Shown: piece after piece, positions 1 through 47,647 of the stretch
How positions within the stretch are numbered: the stretch's first letter is position 1
Layout of the letters: each line of letters begins with the position of its first letter
Source: Shigella phage Sf12
DNA length: 47,647 nucleotides
Direction: 5' to 3' (one strand)
Sequence record: MF158039
The notes under the pieces: model-generated
The model's database searches: none
Seen by the model: the letters and a program-made list of their open reading frames with translations, nothing else
What the model was told of the DNA's origin: nothing
Translations under genes and position numbers: made by a program

Positions 1-257
1 ATATATATATATTAAGGACTTATGGCGTAAGTCATGGCGTAGCTTGGCGTACCTCGCGTAACGATGGCGGCTCAGCTTACATCGCGCTACTGAGGTTACG
101 TGTATATGAAGGAAAAGGCCATGGCGAGCGATAAAACCAACCAACTAGTTGATACACTCCCCTTCATTCCATCCATCCATCAACCATTGCTCAATTCGCA
201 ACAGTCCAGAAAATCATTGCAATCGATGCAATATTGCTATACATGCAATAGTACTGT
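1..257. repeat. Terminal direct repeat, left copy (identical to 47391..47647); true length may be longer because the window ends inside it
   Basis: Exact identity of window start and end read directly; repeat period 47,390 bp. Confidence 0.9.
24..70. repeat. Five GGCGTA-type direct repeats phased at about 10 bp inside the terminal repeat
   Basis: GGCGTA at 24, 36, 46, (G)CGTA at 56, GGCGG at 66; one helical turn apart. Confidence 0.7.
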
Positions 258-280
258 GAATCATTGCAATATCTGCAACA
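185..280. repeat. Cluster of ATTGCAAT / TGCAAT palindromic short repeats inside the terminal repeat
   Basis: cattgcaat at 215 and 262, tgcaat at 227 and 244, tgcaac at 274, attgctcaat at 186. Confidence 0.6.
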
Positions 281-296
281 ATCCATAAATCGAACG

Positions 297-342
297 AATA
301 GCACTTTTTGCTAATGACCATTCAGCCCTGATTGGCTATAGT
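297..342 (+). promoter_or_regulatory. Junction cassette copy: palindrome TAGCA-N5-TGCTA (299..313) then -10-like TATAGT (337..342) and conserved leader
   Basis: aatagcactttttgctaatg; 23-bp gap to TATAGT; leader acaacgaggagagaaagaATG. Confidence 0.55.
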
Positions 343-370
343 TATCACATCAACAACGAGGAGAGAAAGA

Positions 371-589
371 ATGAAAGCGATTATTATCAACAACGAAATC
401 AAGTTTGACGAAGATGCATTGACTCTGGCTGATATGGGTTATGAGATTGGTGAAGAGGTTGAAGTGTTTGAACTTGAAGGTGAGTACTTCATTGATGCAA
501 AGTGCGATGTTGTCATTGATGGCATTGTGGCTATTTACGAAAGTGAGGAGTTCACCGTTACCACAGAAGAAATCGAGGTATTAGCATGA
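371..589 (+). CDS. Hypothetical small acidic protein (ORF 332..589, start refined to ATG 371 behind conserved leader)
   Basis: ORF track; SD gaggag 8 bp upstream of ATG 371. Confidence 0.5.
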   Translation: MKAIIINNEIKFDEDALTLADMGYEIGEEVEVFELEGEYFIDAKCDVVIDGIVAIYESEEFTVTTEEIEVLA

Positions 590-1478: not shown

Positions 1479-3062
1479 ATGTTTGATTTTAACGAAGATA
1501 AGTTATCAGTAGAACAGGTAATGTCTGTAGCTGCAGCTGAGAATCTGCCACCTTTACGAGTTGCTATTAATGCAAATGGCTATCGCCAGAGCGCTTCATT
1601 CTGGAAAGCTCCTGTTGAGATTGATTCAACTGGTGATAAATATCCGGTCATTTCACTTGGAAATGATTGTGATGTCGTTGGTAAGTTATCAAGCAATATC
1701 GCACGCTCAGTTCAGTTCCCTGAGTCATCTGCTTATATGCATTTTCTTGGCTGCATATCAGCAGCAATGCTTGGTCGCTTCACTGTTGAATACCATGGAA
1801 CTCAGCAGCCTACATCCCTGTACGTCGTGACCAGTCAGCCACCATCAACTGGTAAATCTGCTATTAACTCATTATCAATCGCGCCAATGATTGCAGAGAC
1901 TGAACGACTGAATGAATTACGCAAGCGCGACCGTAAGAAGATTATGGCCAAATTGTCAGCGCTAGCCAAAGAGATGAAGCAGGAGAAGTCACCATCAGAG
2001 ATGGCTGGATTATTCGAAGAGAAAGAGGAACTGGAGGAGAAGTTAGAAAAGCTGTGTGACATTGTTTTTCCGGTGTCCGATACCACGCCTGAAGGCCTTG
2101 CTCGAATCAACAGTCGACAGGGTAACTTTTCAGTAATCTCCGATGAAGCAACTAGCGTGAACTCACTGTTAGGCATGACATATGGTGACGGCTCAAAGAA
2201 AACTAACAGCGAGCTGGTACTTAAAGCATGGGATGCTGGCAACGTATCTATCGCGCGTGCGAATGCAGAGAACAACATGAGCTTCATTGCCATGGGTTGT
2301 ATCTCGGTAATTGCGCAGGATGAAACAATCGTGGCCATCATGAATGCCGGCGCGCGTGGTATCGGTGTATCCGAACGTTTCTTGCTTGTGCGTGAAAAAT
2401 CATTCCTTGGTGAGCGTGTGTTCGTCGATGATGATGGCGAGTCAACATATGAACCAATTGATGGAGCTCTGAAGGCTGATTACTTCCGTCTGGTACATGA
2501 AATTATGAATGAGCAAGATGTTAAGCTGACTGTCAGCAATTCGGCAATGAAGCATCTCAATCGCGCGCGGCAGGAAATGGAGCCTCACCTTGCAGATGGC
2601 GGCAAATATTCACATACAATGCTGCGCGGCGCTTTGGGTAAAATGGATAAGCAGGTAATTCGACTTGCAGCAGTTCTTCACACTATCCGTAACTGGTTTA
2701 ACCCTAACGGCGGTAGTCCGCAGAAATCCAGAGAGATTGAACTGGAAACGATGCAGGAGGCTTTATTAATGTTTGAAGAGCTTAGTAAGACTTACTTGTC
2801 TTCCGCTAATGCTGCTGGTCACGCAGGTGATAATGCAGAGATGAATAAGCTAATTGATATCCTGATTAAGCAAGGCAAGAACAGCAAAGGAGTTGTAGGG
2901 TTGCGCTCACTTTATGAGGCTGCGCGTAAGGTTCGACCTTTTGAGGCTCAGACTGGCGTAATGGCTAAGATTAAAGACCATTTACTGCCGATGCTTGATG
3001 AGAAAAACTACACCTGCCTGATTGGTGATAAGGTTTACATTAATCCACGACTGCTGGGGTAA
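1479..3062 (+). CDS. P-loop NTPase-containing protein, 527 aa; N- and C-terminal segments are paralogous to 46060..46605
   Basis: Walker A-like QPPSTGKS; N-term MFDFNEDKL..NLPPLRVAINANGY and C-term KGVVGLRS..CLIGDKVYINPRLL shared with short paralog. Confidence 0.6.
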   Translation: MFDFNEDKLSVEQVMSVAAAENLPPLRVAINANGYRQSASFWKAPVEIDSTGDKYPVISLGNDCDVVGKLSSNIARSVQFPESSAYMHFLGCISAAMLGRFTVEYHGTQQPTSLYVVTSQPPSTGKSAINSLSIAPMIAETERLNELRKRDRKKIMAKLSALAKEMKQEKSPSEMAGLFEEKEELEEKLEKLCDIVFPVSDTTPEGLARINSRQGNFSVISDEATSVNSLLGMTYGDGSKKTNSELVLKAWDAGNVSIARANAENNMSFIAMGCISVIAQDETIVAIMNAGARGIGVSERFLLVREKSFLGERVFVDDDGESTYEPIDGALKADYFRLVHEIMNEQDVKLTVSNSAMKHLNRARQEMEPHLADGGKYSHTMLRGALGKMDKQVIRLAAVLHTIRNWFNPNGGSPQKSREIELETMQEALLMFEELSKTYLSSANAAGHAGDNAEMNKLIDILIKQGKNSKGVVGLRSLYEAARKVRPFEAQTGVMAKIKDHLLPMLDEKNYTCLIGDKVYINPRLLG

Positions 3063-6876: not shown

Positions 6877-6955
6877 TATTTAATTTCCTGTTAGCAGATT
6901 ATGAAGTACATGATTATAAAGGTTAATGGCATAGCCATCAACGGTAGTAATGTTT

Positions 6956-11499: not shown

Positions 11500-11542
11500 A
11501 TAATAACAGCCATCAAAACCAATGTTTAACAAAAAGTGCTAT
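11500..11542 (-). promoter_or_regulatory. Junction cassette copy upstream of the helicase: palindrome-like TAGCA-N5-TGTTA (11527..11541), -10-like TATTAT (complement of 11500..11505)
   Basis: 21-bp gap; leader caatcgaacgaacatgaaagg. Confidence 0.5.
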
Positions 11543-11546
11543 CGAG

Positions 11547-12029
11547 GTGATAAAAGTGACTGAAATTGATAAGCGTACTCTTAACGGTAATAATGGAACC
11601 ATCCGAACAGAAGATAAGAAACCACGTAAACGGCCTTCAGGTTACTATGTGTTAAAGGATGAAGTAAAGGCTGGGCTGAGGGCAAGACTTGAGATTGTTT
11701 TAGACTTCTACGGCAGCAAGGCGAATATGGCGAAGCAATTAAAGGTTACTCGCCAGGCTGTTGAGGAATGGTTTAATCGCGGCATGATGTCGGCACGTGG
11801 CGCCCAGCTTGCTCACAATCGATACAAGCGAACTGGCGAAGGCTTCCGCGCTACATTTTGTCGACCAGACTTGCAGTTTGACGGTAACGGCAAGCCGCTA
11901 ACTCTGCGTTGCAAAAAGCGCCACATGCTACGCGTGGTCACTGATGCAGAATTAGCCACCAAGCCCGAGTGTCGCTCGTGGCGCAAAATTAAAGCAGCTA
12001 ATGAAGCAGCACGAAAAGCTAAAGAGTAA
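11547..12029 (+). CDS. HTH DNA-binding protein, candidate regulator
   Basis: HTH-like KANMAKQLKVTRQAVEEWFNRG; GTG start; divergent from helicase. Confidence 0.5.
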   Translation: MIKVTEIDKRTLNGNNGTIRTEDKKPRKRPSGYYVLKDEVKAGLRARLEIVLDFYGSKANMAKQLKVTRQAVEEWFNRGMMSARGAQLAHNRYKRTGEGFRATFCRPDLQFDGNGKPLTLRCKKRHMLRVVTDAELATKPECRSWRKIKAANEAARKAKE

Positions 12030-15538: not shown

Positions 15539-15565
15539 ACTTTTCCTCTCGTTGTCGATGAGGTA

Positions 15566-15608
15566 ACTATACCTCACCGATTTAATGTTGTTTTAGCTAT
15601 TAGTGCTG
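15566..15608 (-). promoter_or_regulatory. Junction cassette copy (degenerate palindrome 15594..15608, -10-like TATAGT complement of 15566..15571)
   Basis: 22-bp gap; conserved leader. Confidence 0.45.
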
Positions 15609-20714: not shown

Positions 20715-20761
20715 AAATTCCTCCTATTGATAAGGGCAATTCCATTTGCCCATTCTATCAG

Positions 20762-23700
20762 TTAGTAAACTCCAGTCAAACGGCCAATCTGAACACGAAG
20801 CCTTCCGTTAGCGTCAGCAACAGATATTGTCTCATTTGTTTGCTTCATTCTACCCTCTCCAGCCGTAGAGCCGTTATTTTCGAACGTTCCACCCTTGTCA
20901 AGTCTCCATCCGACAGAGCCAAATACGTAGTTGTTAGACTGAATTGCACCACCAATCTTCGCGTTAGTGATTGAACCGTCCTGAATAACCGCGCTTTGTA
21001 TGAATACCTGGTTATTCTCGACAACGAAAGGCAGCGACCACTGACCGGAACCAGAACTAATGCCGTTACTGATTGCAAACCTGTTAGCATCGAAAATGAA
21101 CTGACTACGAACATTTCCACCACTACCGGTTAACTCCATGCTCATGCCAGCACCGTACTCAACTCCATTGTACTTAAGGCCTAGCTTAACGCCGTACTGA
21201 ACACCAACGCCTTCAACTGTAGCGTAAGAGTCGAGCTTCTGATTCAAAGCCGCCTCGTTATCACCAAGCCTTGCGCTGAGAGCCGTATCAGCAGTAGCCC
21301 TCGCTTCCGTCTCGGTTGCTAGCGCTGTTTCGATAGTTGTAATCTGACCAACAATCTCATCATCAATTTGCGCCTTAAGCTGCGTAAGAGCCTCTACACG
21401 AGCCTCAGTTTCGTTGGCTATTAGATTAACAGCCTGACGATACTCAGCCTTCCTGGCTCCATTTTCACGCCTCATAACACGAACATCAGTATCGTTTGCC
21501 AATGCGTTCTCAATTATTGCCTCGGCCTGGTTCTGAATGTCAGCATTTGCATCTATCGCGTTCTGGAGTAGATACTTGTATCCATCTGAGTTTTCAATAT
21601 CAACCTTAATTTCTCCAATGATTGCACTCACGTCATCCGAAGCCATACCCCTGACAAAATCAGTCCATTGCGATACGTTACCAATCCTGTCGATCGTTCT
21701 TCCCCTATACCAGATCACCTTTCCTGCCGGGAGCGTCGTGTGCCAATACTCAAACTGAGGGTAAGGAACGAGAGTTAACAATGAGGCATTCTCAGGGGTG
21801 TATGTCCCATCGCCATTATCAGCAACTTGCTGCAATTCCACATAAGCAGTATCACCACTATTATTGCCAAAACCCCACTTAACACGGATGCCAAATACTT
21901 CATCATCTGAAGCCGTGATGACCTGCAATGGCTCAGGCTCACCAACCTTACCAGTCAAGCTAACTGTTGTAATTTCAGACCATGCCGATACTGATTTTTG
22001 GTCAGTTACAGCACGAACCCTGACGTCGTAAATGCCAGCGTAGATGCCTTCAATATCAACCTCAGTGTTAGCCGTCTCCGGTACATTAATCCAGTTTCCG
22101 TTATTCTTACGCCATTGCACGTTGTATGTTTTCGCATACTGCACCTTGTCGTAACCGATAACCATCGTCTCAACGCTCATGCCCTGAACTACTTTGCTGT
22201 AACTAGTAACCGTAATGTTCTTCGGTGGTAAAATCCTGTCAGGGTCAACTATGCTTGTTGGCCTGTCGTCGATGTTTACTCCGTAGTCAATCTCATCGTA
22301 CTTGTTAGGGTCATACTGAACAGCCGTGATGCTGTACTGGAATGAATCCTCTCCGTCCGTGTTGGCTTTTTGAATCCCGGTCACAACATATTGCTGTAAA
22401 GCAAGATTCTGCTTGTCGATTGCAAATACCGTATCTGGCTGCGGCGTGAAGCTGAATGCTGTATTCAGCTCAAGCGTCAACTTATCGGCAGATACTGAAG
22501 CGATAGTCCTGTACTCCGGGCTTCCATCTGGCTTGTTGATTAAGATTCTGTCGCCAGGGTCAGCATCAATAGCGAACGGAACAAAAACCTGCAAACCAGT
22601 AGCCTCCACGATTCGACCAGAAAGGTTTAACGTGTAATTGCTTGACCAAGCTTGGTCATTAACAGCAATGACATCACCAATCATAGGAATCATACCTTCG
22701 AGTCCGGTGGTGAATGTTATTGTTTCGCTACGCAAGTTCGTTTTAAGGAGCCAACGACCACGACGGTTAGCCTCGCTACGCCTTACGCATCCAATTGCAG
22801 TCAGGTCTACAGGGTTATACCCAAACCTGCGAGTTGCCTCAAGGTCAAACACTGGCTCTACGTCTTGCTGGTAGTTGTTCTCTACATCATCAAACTGAAC
22901 GTTGGCAGTCGTGTACAAACTCTTATCACTAGCAAACGTGCGGTTGAATAAACCATCGACTACGTTATCATTTGTGAATACGTAACTTGGTTGGCGCGGC
23001 CTGTCAACTACAATCCCAATTTGCTCACCATCATAGAAGGTTAATCCACGGAAAATGGAACAGATGTCACGAATAATCTGATACGCTTCCACTTTCTGCT
23101 GAATGACAACGTTACAAGTATATCGCGGCTCCATTCCACCCTTACCATCCGGGACCATCTGGTCGCAGAATTGCGCAGCTTCATACAGACCCCACTTATC
23201 AATCTCAACTCCAAGCTCTCGCTGGTCAAGCCCATACCTCTGACTGACTACCAGGTCATATAAAACCCACGCCGGGTTATCTGACCATGCCATCTTGAAA
23301 GTTCCATCCCAAGTTCCGCTATAAGTCCGCGTTGCTGGGGTGTAGTTTGTTGGGACTCTAATTATCTTCCACCTTTTCTTGATTGCGATAGGCGGCAACC
23401 CGTTAGGAAAAAGGTCTGAACTGAACTCTACATAAACAAGCGCTGTAAGTGGATAACGGAATTTGGCGTCAATTACTTCCTGATAGGTCGTAATCTGCAT
23501 TCCGTTTACCAGAGTGCTGCTTGTTGAGTCTGGCGTTAACTTCCTAATACGAACAAGAGCGCTGCTAAACTCGGCTGGTAAGTTAACCCTGATACTGCGG
23601 TCGTAACCTGTTGTAGTTTTACCGTTAGCCACGCCTCTGGTATATTCAGTGTACGCTGAGCCATTAACTGATAAATCGATTGCATATTCACATGTTGTGC

Positions 23701-30937: not shown

Positions 30938-30980
30938 TTAAATAATCCTCTCGTGTTTGTTTGAGTTGAAATTATAACAT

Positions 30981-31005
30981 AAAAAAAGCCCCTGTGAAGG
31001 GGCTT
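30981..31005 (-). terminator. Rho-independent terminator after the major tail protein gene
   Basis: aagccccttcacaggggctt then ttttttt on minus strand. Confidence 0.6.
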
Positions 31006-43213: not shown

Positions 43214-43238
43214 AAAAAAAGCCCTCACGAGGAGGGCC
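43214..43238 (-). terminator. Rho-independent terminator
   Basis: ggccctcctcgtgagggc then ttttttt on minus strand. Confidence 0.6.
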
Positions 43239-43467: not shown

Positions 43468-43543
43468 TGGTGTTCCGCGCTGGACTCGAACCAGCAACTG
43501 AGACTTAGGAGGTCTCTGCGTTATCCTGTTACGCCAGCAGAAC
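43468..43543 (-). tRNA. tRNA-Arg (anticodon CCU, decodes AGG)
   Basis: Hand-folded cloverleaf: acceptor GTTCTGC/GCGGAAC, D stem GCGT/ACGC with GG in loop, anticodon stem GAGAC/GTCTC loop CTCCTAA, T arm GCTGG-TTCGAGT-CCAGC, encoded CCA. Confidence 0.85.
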
Positions 43544-44303: not shown

Positions 44304-44350
44304 ATCATATCAACTACCCATTCTGGCGTATTAGCAATTAGTGCTATTTG
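44304..44350 (-). promoter_or_regulatory. Junction cassette copy: palindrome (44332..44346), -10-like TATGAT (complement of 44304..44309); no long ORF downstream
   Basis: attagcaattagtgctatttg; leader catcaagacgaaacgaggagaagaaATG precedes only a 22-codon ORF. Confidence 0.5.
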
Positions 44351-44820
44351 CCGTGATTATCATGAAATACGTATTTTAAGTTCGCTTCCTGCCTTGCCTT
44401 AATTGCCTCATTCATGTCGGAATAAGTTCCCAGGTGAATATCCTTTCCGGAGACTTTAATCTTTGCGGCCCACTTACCTGAAGCTTTGTGCCAGCCTACT
44501 CCAATGAAACCACTTAAGCTAGATGGTCTTATTGATTGGTTCCTCTGATTTCCTGCGTTTGTAACAAGCCTTAGGTTTTCAATCCTGTTATCTTTCCTAT
44601 TATGGTTTATGTGATCAATCATCATACCTTCGGGCTTTTCCCTACCATGCATGAACCAAACTATATTGTGCACAAGTGCGGTTCCGTCTATGAAATGTCA
44701 CTGCAGATAACCTTTAGAATCAGGACTTCCAGTAACTCGTCCATTTGACAATCTGGTTATCGTTCCATCTTTATTATAGCTAAAGTGGCATTTTATATAC
44801 TCTTTATTTCTCACTACCAT
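44344..44820 (-). pseudogene. HNH homing endonuclease interrupted by an in-frame TGA (complement of 44698..44700)
   Basis: Hand translation MVVRNKEY...SKGYLQ*HFIDGTALVHNIVWFMHG...IDHINHNRKDNRIENLRLV aligns across the stop with intact paralogs. Confidence 0.6.
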
Positions 44821-46019: not shown

Positions 46020-46066
46020 ATCATAGCTGACTACCCGATTTATTGTTTAGCAATTCGTGCTATTTA
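46020..46066 (-). promoter_or_regulatory. Junction cassette copy: palindrome (46048..46062), -10-like TATGAT (complement of 46020..46025)
   Basis: ttgtttagcaattcgtgctattta; 22-bp gap. Confidence 0.55.
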
Positions 46067-46605
46067 CCAGTCAGGGGATATTTCTTCTTCCTCTTAAGCC
46101 TCTCGATCTGCTCATCAATAGCCTTGATAGTAATCTCGTCAACAATCTTCTCGCAATCCTCGATGTTGAAGTCATCTTCCAGTGGCTTAACCTTGTAAGT
46201 CCAGTCCTGGTCGCCATCCAGCAGTCTAGGGTTGATGTAAATCTTATCGCCGATTAGACATGTATAACAAAGTTTATCCAGGCTTGGGATGATGACGTCC
46301 TTAATCTCCCGCATCACTCCACTCCGACCTTCGAATGGCTTAACTTTACGTGCCGACTCATATATTGACCTAAGGCCAACGACACCTTTACTGTTCATGC
46401 CCTGTTTAATGAGGATATCTATAGCCTTTAATGTGTCACGGTTAAGCTCAAAATCTTTCACCGCAGAAAGCTCTGGCCAGTAGTCCAGAGACTGCTTATA
46501 TCCGTTAGCATTGATTGCCACTCGCAACGGCGGCAAATTGTCTGCCGACGCTATCAACAACACTTGTTCGCTAGTTAGCTTATCTTCGTTGAAATCAAAC
46601 ATCAT
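46060..46605 (-). CDS. Short paralog (181 aa) of the 527-aa P-loop protein, lacking the central ATPase segment
   Basis: MMFDFNEDKLTSEQV..NLPPLRVAINANGY and KGVVGLRSIYESARKVKPFE..CLIGDKIYINPRLL match 1479..3062 ends. Confidence 0.6.
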   Translation of the reverse strand: MMFDFNEDKLTSEQVLLIASADNLPPLRVAINANGYKQSLDYWPELSAVKDFELNRDTLKAIDILIKQGMNSKGVVGLRSIYESARKVKPFEGRSGVMREIKDVIIPSLDKLCYTCLIGDKIYINPRLLDGDQDWTYKVKPLEDDFNIEDCEKIVDEITIKAIDEQIERLKRKKKYPLTGK

Positions 46606-47087
46606 TTAATATCCTCAATAATTAAACGGTAATCTTTAATCGCTTTCATCGCTGCTGCAAGAGCATCTCCTTCATACTCTGATAAGTCTGGCATAACCTT
46701 TGAGATCTTGGTCTTAAACTCGGCAATCGCCCCATCTTTTACTGCGTCGTTAGTCTTCTTTCTGATTCCAATGTTCACTTCGCCAGGGATTAACTTGATG
46801 ACTAATTTTCTTTCACCAGCTATCTCAGTTAAACCGAATTCAGTGTTACCCTCATCATCATCGTAGAAATGAGTTGCTTTGAGGCCAGCGTCCCTCAGCT
46901 CAGTCATGCGCGCAGTTGTATTGTAAATGTATGAGCTCTTAAGTTTTGACATTGATTCACCATCATCCCCTATAAGGCTCTCAATCTTATTCAATGACAC
47001 GCTGAATGTCTTATCTTCAGACTTTAGTGCTTGCCTTGTCATTTCTCGAATTACCTGGCCAAGCGTCACTTTTTCTTTCATCTTCAT
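46602..47087 (-). CDS. Hypothetical protein, 161 aa; first gene of the leftward right-end operon
   Basis: ORF track; consensus sigma70-like promoter upstream. Confidence 0.5.
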   Translation of the reverse strand: MKMKEKVTLGQVIREMTRQALKSEDKTFSVSLNKIESLIGDDGESMSKLKSSYIYNTTARMTELRDAGLKATHFYDDDEGNTEFGLTEIAGERKLVIKLIPGEVNIGIRKKTNDAVKDGAIAEFKTKISKVMPDLSEYEGDALAAAMKAIKDYRLIIEDIK

Positions 47088-47112
47088 ATCTCCTCTCGTT
47101 TAAGTTGAGTAA

Positions 47113-47141
47113 ATCATATACCGACTTACGCATGTAGTCAA
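47113..47141 (-). promoter_or_regulatory. Consensus-like sigma70 promoter (TTGACT-17 bp-TATGAT) reading leftward from the right end
   Basis: Minus strand cTTGACTacatgcgtaagtcggtaTATGATttactcaacttaaacgagaggagatATG. Confidence 0.55.
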
Positions 47142-47331
47142 GCGTAATTCTTGGTAAATTTTAGGGGGTCTTACGCCAAATGGCACCTTAGCTCAGTCAT
47201 GGCTTAATGTAGTTCGTGGTAACGCCTGTAACGAAGCAAATGGTCGGTTAGACCCCCGCACTGTCGTAATGTGTCCATAGATAGCAATTATGTATTCTGA
47301 TAGGAAAAAACACACAGATACCCGTGGAACC

Positions 47332-47380
47332 CCAGTTACACTAGTTACATACAATAATATTAATAATAATAATAATAATA
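47332..47380. repeat. AGTTACACTA plus (TAA)n low-complexity element, also present at 18572..18613
   Basis: agttacactagttacatacaataatattaataataataataataata versus agttacactatatacaaacaaatatagtaataataataatta. Confidence 0.6.
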
Positions 47381-47390
47381 GAAAGAAGAT

Positions 47391-47647
47391 ATATATATAT
47401 ATTAAGGACTTATGGCGTAAGTCATGGCGTAGCTTGGCGTACCTCGCGTAACGATGGCGGCTCAGCTTACATCGCGCTACTGAGGTTACGTGTATATGAA
47501 GGAAAAGGCCATGGCGAGCGATAAAACCAACCAACTAGTTGATACACTCCCCTTCATTCCATCCATCCATCAACCATTGCTCAATTCGCAACAGTCCAGA
47601 AAATCATTGCAATCGATGCAATATTGCTATACATGCAATAGTACTGT
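47391..47647. repeat. Terminal direct repeat, right copy (identical to 1..257)
   Basis: Exact identity read directly. Confidence 0.9.

What the first reader, a model, noticed from the sequence alone, without database searches (positions are those of the whole stretch)
47113..47141. Single near-consensus sigma70 promoter at the right end, unlike the cassette promoters elsewhere
TTGACT-17 bp-TATGAT is the only strong classical promoter I found. It may be the host-RNAP entry point for immediate-early transcription, with cassette promoters activated afterwards.
Basis: partly seen in the sequence, partly recalled or inferred. Interest (0 to 1): 0.35.

Follow-up and report, generated by a model that had tools for sequence, protein, structure and literature searches.

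The report
Conserved leftward early promoter, T1-like phage
The flagged motif is a real, evolutionarily conserved host-type (sigma-70) promoter in front of the first gene of the small-gene block of Shigella phage Sf12, a T1-like phage. It is an ordinary feature, it is not the only such site in the genome, and the "right end" position comes from where the circular assembly was cut.

Summary
TTGACT-17-TATGAT is present exactly as described, on the minus strand (-35 47141..47136, -10 47118..47113). It lies 31 nt upstream of the probable start codon (47081) of gp75, a DUF7174 protein.

The window is Shigella phage Sf12 (Drexlerviridae). Bases 1..257 repeat 47391..47647, so the site sits inside a ~673-bp divergent control region, not at a genome end.

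As a bare motif match it is not significant. It ranks third genome-wide, and three other gene-proximal sites (20779, 6941, 30998) are as good.

Its reality rests on comparison. About 20 related phages were examined, including lineages whose gp75 is only 30-37% identical. All but the AKS96/AHS24/phiKP26 group, where the match is weak, keep a clear -35/-10 pair with 16-17 nt spacing, 30-45 nt before the start codon. One relative's record and the TLS paper (P01) already predict a promoter at this position.

The "cassette promoters" are the published 21-nt Drexlerviridae repeat, aaATAGCACnnnTTGnTAAAA. They keep a -10 at fixed distance, lack a -35, and carry a dyad centred near -42, so a two-tier programme is plausible but untested.

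The -35 is bracketed by TTACGC-N10-GCGTAA, and a conserved spacer motif suggests an operator.

Verdict: ordinary, conserved, probably early promoter; low novelty.

The parts
47136..47141 (-). -35 hexamer TTGACT (5/6 match to TTGACA)
   Evidence: Invariant or TTGATT in 8 close relatives. TTGAC(T/C/A) or TTGATA in distant lineages.
47119..47135 (-). 17-nt spacer ACATGCGTAAGTCGGTA, containing the conserved motif AC[AG][CT]GTA(A) directly after the -35
   Evidence: The motif is present directly after the -35 in 13 of about 14 distinct upstream types (my tally), although the rest of the spacer has diverged.
47113..47118 (-). -10 hexamer TATGAT (5/6 match to TATAAT; A2 and T6 kept)
   Evidence: Variants in relatives are TATGAT, TACGAT and TATTAT.
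47106..47106 (-). Predicted transcription start (an A, 7 nt downstream of the -10). Inferred, not measured.
   Evidence: Inference from the usual -10-to-start distance and the sequence.
47126..47147 (.). Inverted repeat TTACGC-N10-GCGTAA bracketing the -35 hexamer; candidate operator
   Evidence: (I3). Close relatives carry TTACAC-N10-GTGTAA, a symmetric change in both arms.
47156..47163 (-). A/T tract TAAAATTT at about -57..-50, resembling an UP element
   Evidence: Sequence. A-tracts are conserved in relatives. The UP-element consensus is recalled from memory, so this is a weak assignment.
47090..47097 (-). Shine-Dalgarno sequence GAGAGGAG
   Evidence: Invariant in the alignment. It lies 8 nt before ATG 47081 but only 2 nt before ATG 47087.
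46602..47081 (-). First gene of the unit: gp75 (Sf12_gp75), DUF7174, 159 aa from ATG 47081. The public record and the ORF listing start at 47087, giving 161 aa.
   Evidence: PF23796, E 1.4e-48; phrog_4841; 100% match to Sf12_gp75.
46060..46605 (-). Second gene: gp74, 181 aa. It is a paralogue of the 527-aa helicase that keeps only its N-terminal 42 aa and C-terminal ~90 aa.
43220..43238 (-). First strong intrinsic terminator downstream, just before the small terminase gene; likely end of the leftward unit (~3.9 kb)
   Evidence: T1 has a terminator annotated at the equivalent position.
47164..47345 (.). Conserved non-coding block upstream of the promoter, ~79% identical in 8 phages, with invariant CTGATAGGAAAAAACA. 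Function unknown.
   Evidence: No significant RNA fold and no Rfam or tRNA hit.
47350..47405 (.). AT-rich (AAT)n/(AT)n tract, conserved in relatives
47413..47451 (+). Four phased direct repeats TGGCGTA(A/G/C) / TCGCGTAA, 9-12 bp apart. The same half-site as in the promoter's inverted repeat. Duplicated at 23..61.
299..342 (+). Divergent rightward promoter of the cassette type: TAGCACTTTTTGCTAA, 22 nt, TATAGT
47391..47647 (.). Exact duplicate of window 1..257 (terminal overlap of the assembly)

Best explanation
This is a sigma-70-dependent promoter of Shigella phage Sf12 (Drexlerviridae) that fires leftward out of the ~673-bp divergent control region.

Proposed mechanism:
- Host RNA polymerase holoenzyme recognises TTGACT and TATGAT at optimal 17-nt spacing, possibly helped by an upstream A/T tract.
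- Transcription starts near 47106.
- The transcript covers gp75 (DUF7174), gp74 (a core-less helicase paralogue) and the following small ORFs, the HNH endonuclease gene and tRNA-Arg.
- It ends at the terminator at 43238..43220, in front of the terminase genes.

Because it has a full -35 and needs no accessory site, it should be usable by unmodified host polymerase as soon as the DNA enters, which would make it an early promoter. The inverted repeat around the -35 and the conserved AC[AG][CT]GTAA motif in the spacer probably form a protein-binding site that later turns the promoter down.

Shown: the motif, its position, its conservation, the gene order and the terminator.
Inferred: the start site, the timing and the repression.
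For: - Motif and context.
- In 8 alignable relatives from several genera, the -35, the -10 and the 17-nt spacing are essentially invariant. Variation falls at the spacer's 3' end and in the discriminator.
- In lineages where gp75 is only 30-37% identical and the DNA no longer aligns (Rtp, Rogue1, SU57, JeanPiccard, LF82-11, P817, phiA2-1, Sd1, e4/1c, ESCO41, IME253 and others), a pair TTGAC(T/C/A) or TTGATA, 16-17 nt, -10 still lies about 30-45 nt before the start codon.
- For the 11 loci tested, 0-13 of 500 shuffles match the observed score within that position window.
- The CEB_EC3a GenBank record annotates a promoter at the homologous place.
- The TLS paper predicts P01 in front of gene 01, next to the pac end.
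- No RNA polymerase or sigma gene was found in TLS, and no polymerase-sized unexplained ORF is present here.
- A terminator precedes the terminase genes, as annotated in T1.
- Operator-like features: an inverted repeat with a symmetric two-arm change between the window and its relatives; GCGTAA occurs 5 times in the 673-bp region against ~0.4 expected from the genome-wide rate; the spacer motif is conserved.
Against: - No experimental start-site or expression data were found for any member of the family.
- As a bare motif it is not significant genome-wide.
- In the close clade the whole stretch from -70 to +30 is conserved, so hexamer conservation there is not specific to the hexamers.
- The region also lies near the packaging-start (pac) end of T1 and next to origin-like repeats, so other constraints act on it.
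- In the AKS96/AHS24/phiKP26 group the match is weak (TTGCGA, 16-17 nt, TAAGAT).
- The inverted repeat is clear only in the close clade and rests on a single compensatory event.
Confidence: 0.75

Rival explanations
1. This is THE single entry point for host RNA polymerase. Only it fires immediately after infection, and every cassette promoter is silent until a product of this transcript activates it.
For: - Cassettes lack a -35 hexamer and carry a conserved dyad TAGCA-N5-TGCTA, 21-22 nt upstream of a TAnnnT -10, so centred near -42 like a class II activator site.
- The TLS authors also found very few sigma-70-like promoters, three in all, one of them at this position.
- The promoter's -10 and leader resemble those of the cassettes, as if only the upstream half had been exchanged.
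Against: - At least three other gene-proximal sites are as good: 20779, 6941 and 30998.
- T1 has about 21 cassettes but no gp75/DUF7174 homologue, so the first gene of this transcript cannot be a universal cassette activator.
- The only recognisable helix-turn-helix candidate (11547..12029, a weak Cro-like match) lies outside this transcript.
- The cassette repeat could instead be an UP-like element or a repressor site, as the TLS paper discusses. In that case cassettes may fire at once.
Confidence: 0.2
2. The conserved sequence is primarily a DNA element of the packaging-initiation (pac) or replication-origin region, and its resemblance to a promoter is incidental. gp75 would then be transcribed from elsewhere.
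For: - The T1 record starts at its pac end inside the homologous intergenic region.
- Phased GCGTA repeats, an AT-rich tract and TGCAAT repeats lie within 300-500 bp.
- T1 shows TTACGCC x2 next to an AT tract, and TGCAA repeats at its pac end.
- The whole proximal block is conserved, not just the hexamers.
Against: - In distant lineages the surrounding sequence has diverged, yet a -35/-10 pair with correct spacing persists at a fixed distance from the start codon. That is what selection on a promoter predicts.
- No alternative promoter is conserved upstream. The GTGCCA-17-TAAAAT site at 47186 is lost in relatives.
- The two roles are not mutually exclusive.
Confidence: 0.05
3. A chance match to the consensus with no function.
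For: The number of promoter-like hits in the genome equals the shuffled expectation. About 0.8 sites of this score are expected by chance in a genome of this size.
Against: Its position directly upstream of a ribosome-binding site and the first gene of an operon, and its conservation across nearly all related lineages examined.
Confidence: 0.02

Closest known systems
Predicted promoter P01 of phage TLS (523..549, in front of gene 01 next to the pac end), and the 'promoter' feature in the vB_EcoS_CEB_EC3a record (344..392)
   Same: - Same family (Drexlerviridae).
- Same position: the first gene of the small-ORF block leaving the pac-proximal divergent region.
- Sigma-70-type hexamers, and one of very few such sites predicted in the genome.
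- The CEB_EC3a site is the direct sequence homologue, TTGACT-17-TATTAT.
   Different: - TLS P01 (ttgacg...gataat) is not alignable with the Sf12 site, and I did not examine the gene behind it.
- All of these are in silico predictions; none has been verified.
Host-polymerase early promoters of virulent coliphages, such as T7 A1-A3 and the strong T5 promoters (from general knowledge)
   Same: Near-consensus -35 and -10 at 17-nt spacing, an A/T-rich upstream region, used by unmodified host polymerase at the start of infection, and heading a block of small host-takeover-type genes.
   Different: - Those sit at the genome end that enters first. T1-like genomes are packaged by headfuls from pac and are partly permuted, so no fixed entry end applies here.
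- The strength and timing of the Sf12 site are unmeasured.
Drexlerviridae 21-nt direct repeat aaATAGCACnnnTTGnTAAAA (the 'cassette'; TLS paper PMC11447400)
   Same: The Sf12 promoter shares the downstream half of the cassette design: a TATGAT-type -10 followed by TAC, and an ..AAACGAGAGGAG leader.
   Different: It lacks the repeat itself and has a true -35 hexamer instead. Cassettes have no -35 and carry the dyad centred near -42.
Autoregulated initiator promoters of iteron plasmids (mini-F repE, R6K pir, pPS10 repA): an inverted-repeat operator over the promoter that shares a half-site with direct-repeat iterons beside an AT-rich region (from general knowledge)
   Same: - An inverted repeat TTACGC-N10-GCGTAA over the -35.
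- Four phased TGGCGTA direct repeats adjacent to an AT-rich tract.
   Different: - The repeats are 7-bp cores 9-12 bp apart, not ~19-22-bp iterons.
- T1 has the GGCGTAA repeats but no DUF7174.
- This is an analogy only.

Membership tests
Sigma-70 (RpoD) housekeeping-type promoter | -35 hexamer close to TTGACA | tested here: met
   TTGACT, 5/6
Sigma-70 (RpoD) housekeeping-type promoter | -10 hexamer close to TATAAT, with A at position 2 and T at position 6 | tested here: met
   TATGAT, 5/6
Sigma-70 (RpoD) housekeeping-type promoter | Spacer of 17 +/- 1 nt | tested here: met
   17 nt; 16-17 nt in all relatives
Sigma-70 (RpoD) housekeeping-type promoter | Correct orientation and a plausible distance to a ribosome-binding site and start codon | tested here: met
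   The -10 ends 31 nt before ATG 47081, and a Shine-Dalgarno sequence lies 8 nt before it
Sigma-70 (RpoD) housekeeping-type promoter | More than a chance match | tested here: inconclusive
   Alone, no: it ranks third with 0.8 such sites expected, and hit counts equal the shuffles. With position and conservation, yes: 0-13 of 500 shuffles at each of 11 loci tested.
Sigma-70 (RpoD) housekeeping-type promoter | Initiation by the sigma-70 holoenzyme at the predicted start | not testable with these tools
   No start-site data for the family in the library
Early (pre-replicative) phage promoter | Heads a block of small, mostly uncharacterised ORFs separated from the late genes by a terminator | tested here: met
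   ORFs 47081 to ~43800, tRNA-Arg, and a terminator at 43238..43220 before the small terminase gene; same layout in T1
Early (pre-replicative) phage promoter | Transcript present within the first minutes and independent of phage protein synthesis | not testable with these tools
   Needs time-resolved RNA-seq with and without chloramphenicol
Drexlerviridae 21-nt repeat 'cassette' promoter | aaATAGCACnnnTTGnTAAAA located 21-22 nt upstream of the -10 | tested here: not met
   No copy within 47088..47390 at up to 3 mismatches; a true -35 is present instead
Iteron-type autoregulated initiator promoter (RepE-like logic) | Inverted-repeat operator over the promoter sharing its half-site with nearby direct repeats beside an AT-rich tract | tested here: met
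   TTACGC-N10-GCGTAA at 47126..47147; four TGGCGTA-type repeats at 47413..47451; AT tract at 47350..47405
Iteron-type autoregulated initiator promoter (RepE-like logic) | The downstream gene encodes a winged-helix DNA-binding initiator or repressor | tested here: inconclusive
Iteron-type autoregulated initiator promoter (RepE-like logic) | Repeats and binding protein co-occur across the family | tested here: not met
   T1 has TTACGCC x2 beside an AT tract but no DUF7174 homologue

The most novel reading that the evidence does not exclude
The consensus promoter is the activator-independent top of a two-tier transcription programme. In addition, its -35-straddling inverted repeat and conserved spacer motif form an operator for a phage protein, possibly its own first product, gp75/DUF7174. 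That protein would also bind the phased GCGTA repeats beside the AT-rich tract. This would couple shut-off of early transcription to origin or pac function, in the manner of RepE/iteron plasmids, in a virulent T1-like phage whose origin and temporal control have not been mapped.
Probability: 0.1. Interest if true: 0.55.

Novelty: new member of a known kind. Interest (0 to 1): 0.15.

Why it matters
By itself it matters little. It is an ordinary host-type promoter in a sequenced, isolated phage, and equivalent sites have already been predicted in relatives.

Its use is as an anchor. T1-like phages are among the least understood classical coliphages. Their temporal programme, replication origin and the role of the 21-nt repeat remain open (the TLS authors found no origin-type repeats and left the 21-nt repeat's function open).

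The comparison made here gives two things:
- A concrete, testable contrast between one promoter with a full -35 and about 15 promoters that lack a -35 and carry a dyad near -42.
- A defined ~673-bp control region in which promoter, operator-like, origin-like and pac-like elements can be dissected.

Tried and rejected
- Structured RNA or tRNA-like element in the conserved block upstream (47150..47345). ARAGORN and Rfam find only tRNA-Arg at 43468..43543. Single-sequence folds are not better than shuffles (z -1.4 and -0.04). The G-run/C-run pairing is not kept in relatives. Rejected.
- Small ORF in that block. None is conserved. Rejected.
- Second upstream promoter, GTGCCA-17-TAAAAT at 47186..47158. 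Its -10 is lost in relatives. Rejected.
- Cassette as a sigma-54 promoter (TGGCAC-N5-TTGC). By inspection the GG is replaced by AG and the spacing is 2 nt too short. Rejected.
- gp75 as the activator that binds the cassette dyad. T1 has about 21 cassettes and no DUF7174. Rejected as a general explanation.
- Experimental transcription data for Drexlerviridae. Six literature searches and six papers gave only in silico promoter predictions.
- More relatives from IMG/VR. Only 15 loci were returned, mostly the isolates already examined.

Full report
**What the window is.** The 159/161-aa protein encoded just downstream of the finding is 100% identical to Sf12_gp75 of Shigella phage Sf12, on a contig of exactly 47,647 bp. 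IMG/VR holds the same contig. Sf12 belongs to Drexlerviridae, Rogunavirinae, Eastlansingvirus, the T1-like phages. Window 1..257 is identical to 47391..47647. The sequence is therefore a circularly closed or permuted genome cut at an arbitrary place, and 'right end' has no biological meaning.

**The observation.** TTGACT, 17 nt, TATGAT is present on the minus strand, with the -35 at 47141..47136 and the -10 at 47118..47113.
- It is followed by an A at 47106, the likely start, 7 nt after the -10. This is inferred.
- Next come the Shine-Dalgarno sequence GAGAGGAG (47097..47090) and two in-frame ATGs.
- Relatives start at the equivalent of the second ATG, which has 8-nt spacing from the Shine-Dalgarno sequence against 2 nt for the first. 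The true start is therefore probably 47081.

**Is the match more than chance?** Not on its own.
- The consensus scan finds as many promoter-like sites as in shuffled sequence: 29 vs 26.3, 43 vs 43.3 and 13 vs 16.0.
- In a position-weight scan of both strands, built from hexamer frequencies I recalled from the literature and therefore approximate, the site ranks third. Three sites reach its score against 0.8 expected.
- The claim that it is the only strong classical promoter fails. TTCACA-16-TGnTATAAT at 30998..30971 matches 11/12.
- Three sites of equal quality lie just upstream of ribosome-binding sites and start codons in the correct orientation: 20779, 6941 and 30998.

**Where it sits.** The site lies in a ~673-bp divergent intergenic region (47082..47390 plus 1..370).
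- Leftward run gp75 (DUF7174, PF23796), gp74, about fifteen small ORFs, an HNH-AP2 endonuclease gene and tRNA-Arg. They end at a strong terminator at 43238..43220, immediately before the terminase genes.
- T1 has the same layout, with an annotated terminator before its small terminase gene. The T1 record begins, at its pac end, inside the homologous intergenic region.
- Rightward, the replication-side genes begin at 371 behind a cassette-type promoter.

**Comparative evidence, which is decisive.**
- In eight alignable relatives from several genera (TH21, TR2, BEK2, DTL, AugustePiccard, ZL19, CEB_EC3a, MM01), the -35, the -10 and the 17-nt spacing are kept. Variation falls at the 3' end of the spacer and in the discriminator.
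- In lineages whose gp75 is only 30-37% identical and whose upstream DNA no longer aligns (Rtp, Rogue1, SU57, JeanPiccard, LF82-11, P817, phiA2-1, Sd1, e4/1c, IME542, ESCO41, IME253 and a metagenomic contig), a pair still lies about 30-45 nt before the start codon. The -35 is TTGAC(T/C/A) or TTGATA, the spacer 16-17 nt, and the -10 is of the type TAnnnT or CAnnAT.
- For the 11 loci tested, only 0-13 of 500 shuffles give as good a site in that position window.
- The AKS96/AHS24/phiKP26 group has only a weak match (TTGCGA, 16-17 nt, TAAGAT).
- The CEB_EC3a record annotates a promoter at the homologous place.
- The 2024 TLS reannotation predicts only three sigma-70-like promoters, one of which (P01) lies in front of gene 01 next to the pac end.
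- I conclude that this is a real promoter, with about 0.75 confidence in the whole statement and higher confidence in promoter function alone.

**The cassette promoters.** Its function was left open in the TLS paper, which suggested a stoperator, an enhancer site or an UP element.
- Sf12 has 14-16 copies against 1.4 expected, all co-oriented with genes. T1 has about 21.
- Anchoring on the -10 shows a fixed 21-22 nt between the repeat and a TAnnnT hexamer, and no -35 hexamer. The dyad TAGCA-N5-TGCTA is then centred near -42, the position of class II activators such as CRP or FNR at -41.5 (general knowledge).
- The Sf12 promoter shares the downstream half of this design, TATGAT followed by TAC and an ..AAACGAGAGGAG leader. 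It replaces the upstream half with a true -35.
Other consensus-like sites exist. The rightward unit starts with a cassette. T1 carries the cassettes without any DUF7174 homologue, so gp75 cannot be a universal activator.
- The TLS authors found no RNA polymerase or sigma gene in TLS, and no large ORF here looks like a polymerase (inference). All promoters therefore depend on host polymerase.

**Operator-like features.**
- The -35 is bracketed by a perfect inverted repeat, TTACGC-N10-GCGTAA (47126..47147). The close relatives have TTACAC-N10-GTGTAA, a symmetric change in both arms.
- A motif AC[AG][CT]GTA(A) directly after the -35 is kept in 13 of about 14 distinct upstream types (my tally), although the rest of the spacer has diverged.
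- GCGTAA occurs 5 times in the 673-bp region, against about 0.4 expected from the genome-wide rate.
- This count includes two of four phased direct repeats (47413..47451) that lie beside a conserved (AAT)n/(AT)n tract. A set of TGCAAT repeats lies next to the rightward promoter. The whole architecture is conserved in BEK2, AugustePiccard, DTL, TR2 and TH21.
- T1 shows TTACGCC x2 beside an AT tract, and TGCAA repeats at its pac end.
- These features suggest that a DNA-binding protein represses the promoter, and that origin and/or pac functions share the region. Which protein is unknown.

**Mosaicism.** The structural genes are 87-90% identical to Sd1 and other Rogunavirinae. The segment 46640..47488 (gp75, the promoter, the conserved non-coding block and the AT tract) has no DNA similarity to Sd1 or AKS96. 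It is contiguous at 73-75% with the Braunvirinae phages BEK2 and AugustePiccard. Sd1's own DUF7174 is only 35% identical. The promoter and its gene therefore travel together as a module.

**Verdict.** The feature is an ordinary, conserved sigma-70 promoter that probably drives early genes. It is a new member of a known kind, and positional equivalents have already been predicted in relatives. Interest is low (0.15). Timing, start site and regulation need the transcription experiments listed under the next steps.

Noticed in passing
window 1..257 and 47391..47647: Exact 257-bp terminal duplication. One boundary falls in the (AT)n tract and the other inside the TGCAAT repeat array, which corresponds to the pac end of the T1 record. 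It could be an assembly overlap or reflect a packaging-related end.
   Followed up: partly
window 299, 976, 1403, 18740 (+); 5247, 7237, 8653, 11541, 15608, 26040, 27146, 33633, 44346, 45029, 46062 (-): The published Drexlerviridae 21-nt repeat (aaATAGCACnnnTTGnTAAAA) occurs here in 14-16 copies, always 21-22 nt upstream of a TAnnnT hexamer and without a -35. This puts a TAGCA-N5-TGCTA dyad near -42. Several copies also have a variable inverted repeat whose arms flank the -10 and change together (for example GGTGAGGTA-TAGT-TACCTCATC at about 15575..15560). That is unexplained.
   Followed up: partly
window 46060..46605 (-) and 1479..3062 (+): gp74 (181 aa), the second gene behind the promoter, is a paralogue of the 527-aa helicase. 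It keeps only the N-terminal 42 aa (74% identical) and the C-terminal ~90 aa (62% identical) and lacks the ATPase core. The short form is conserved in related phages (phrog_7327).
   Followed up: partly
window 44344..44820 (-): The HNH-AP2 homing-endonuclease-like ORF is interrupted by a single in-frame stop after codon 40, leaving a 109-aa ORF with the HNH and AP2 domains behind a GTG start.
   Followed up: partly
window 47413..47451 (= 23..61), 47350..47405, and about 205..290: Three features lie between the two divergent promoters: four phased TGGCGTA-type direct repeats, a conserved (AAT)n/(AT)n tract, and five or six TGCAAT/ATTGCAAT repeats. The architecture is conserved across genera, and T1 has related motifs at its pac end. 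It looks like an origin and/or pac site.
   Followed up: partly
window 47164..47345: A non-coding block about 79% identical in eight phages of several genera, with an invariant CTGATAGGAAAAAACA and repeated GTTAC/GTAAC. There is no conserved ORF, no significant RNA fold and no Rfam match, so its function is unknown.
   Followed up: partly
window 46640..47488: Mosaic module. gp75, its promoter and the upstream block resemble Braunvirinae phages (73-79%), while the rest of the genome is closest to the Rogunavirinae phage Sd1 (about 90%). Sd1's own DUF7174 is only 35% identical.
   Followed up: yes
window 11547..12029 (+): A 160-aa protein with a sub-threshold Cro-like helix-turn-helix match (P22_Cro, E 1e-4), at the position of T1's annotated 'transcriptional regulator' next to the primase gene and divergent from a cassette at 11541. 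It is a candidate binder for one of the repeated motifs.
   Followed up: no
window 20779..20752, 6941..6913, 30998..30971 (all -): Three further sigma-70-like sites as good as the flagged one, each 33-37 nt upstream of a start codon with a ribosome-binding site. The sites at 6941 and 30998 overlap terminator-like hairpins.
   Followed up: partly
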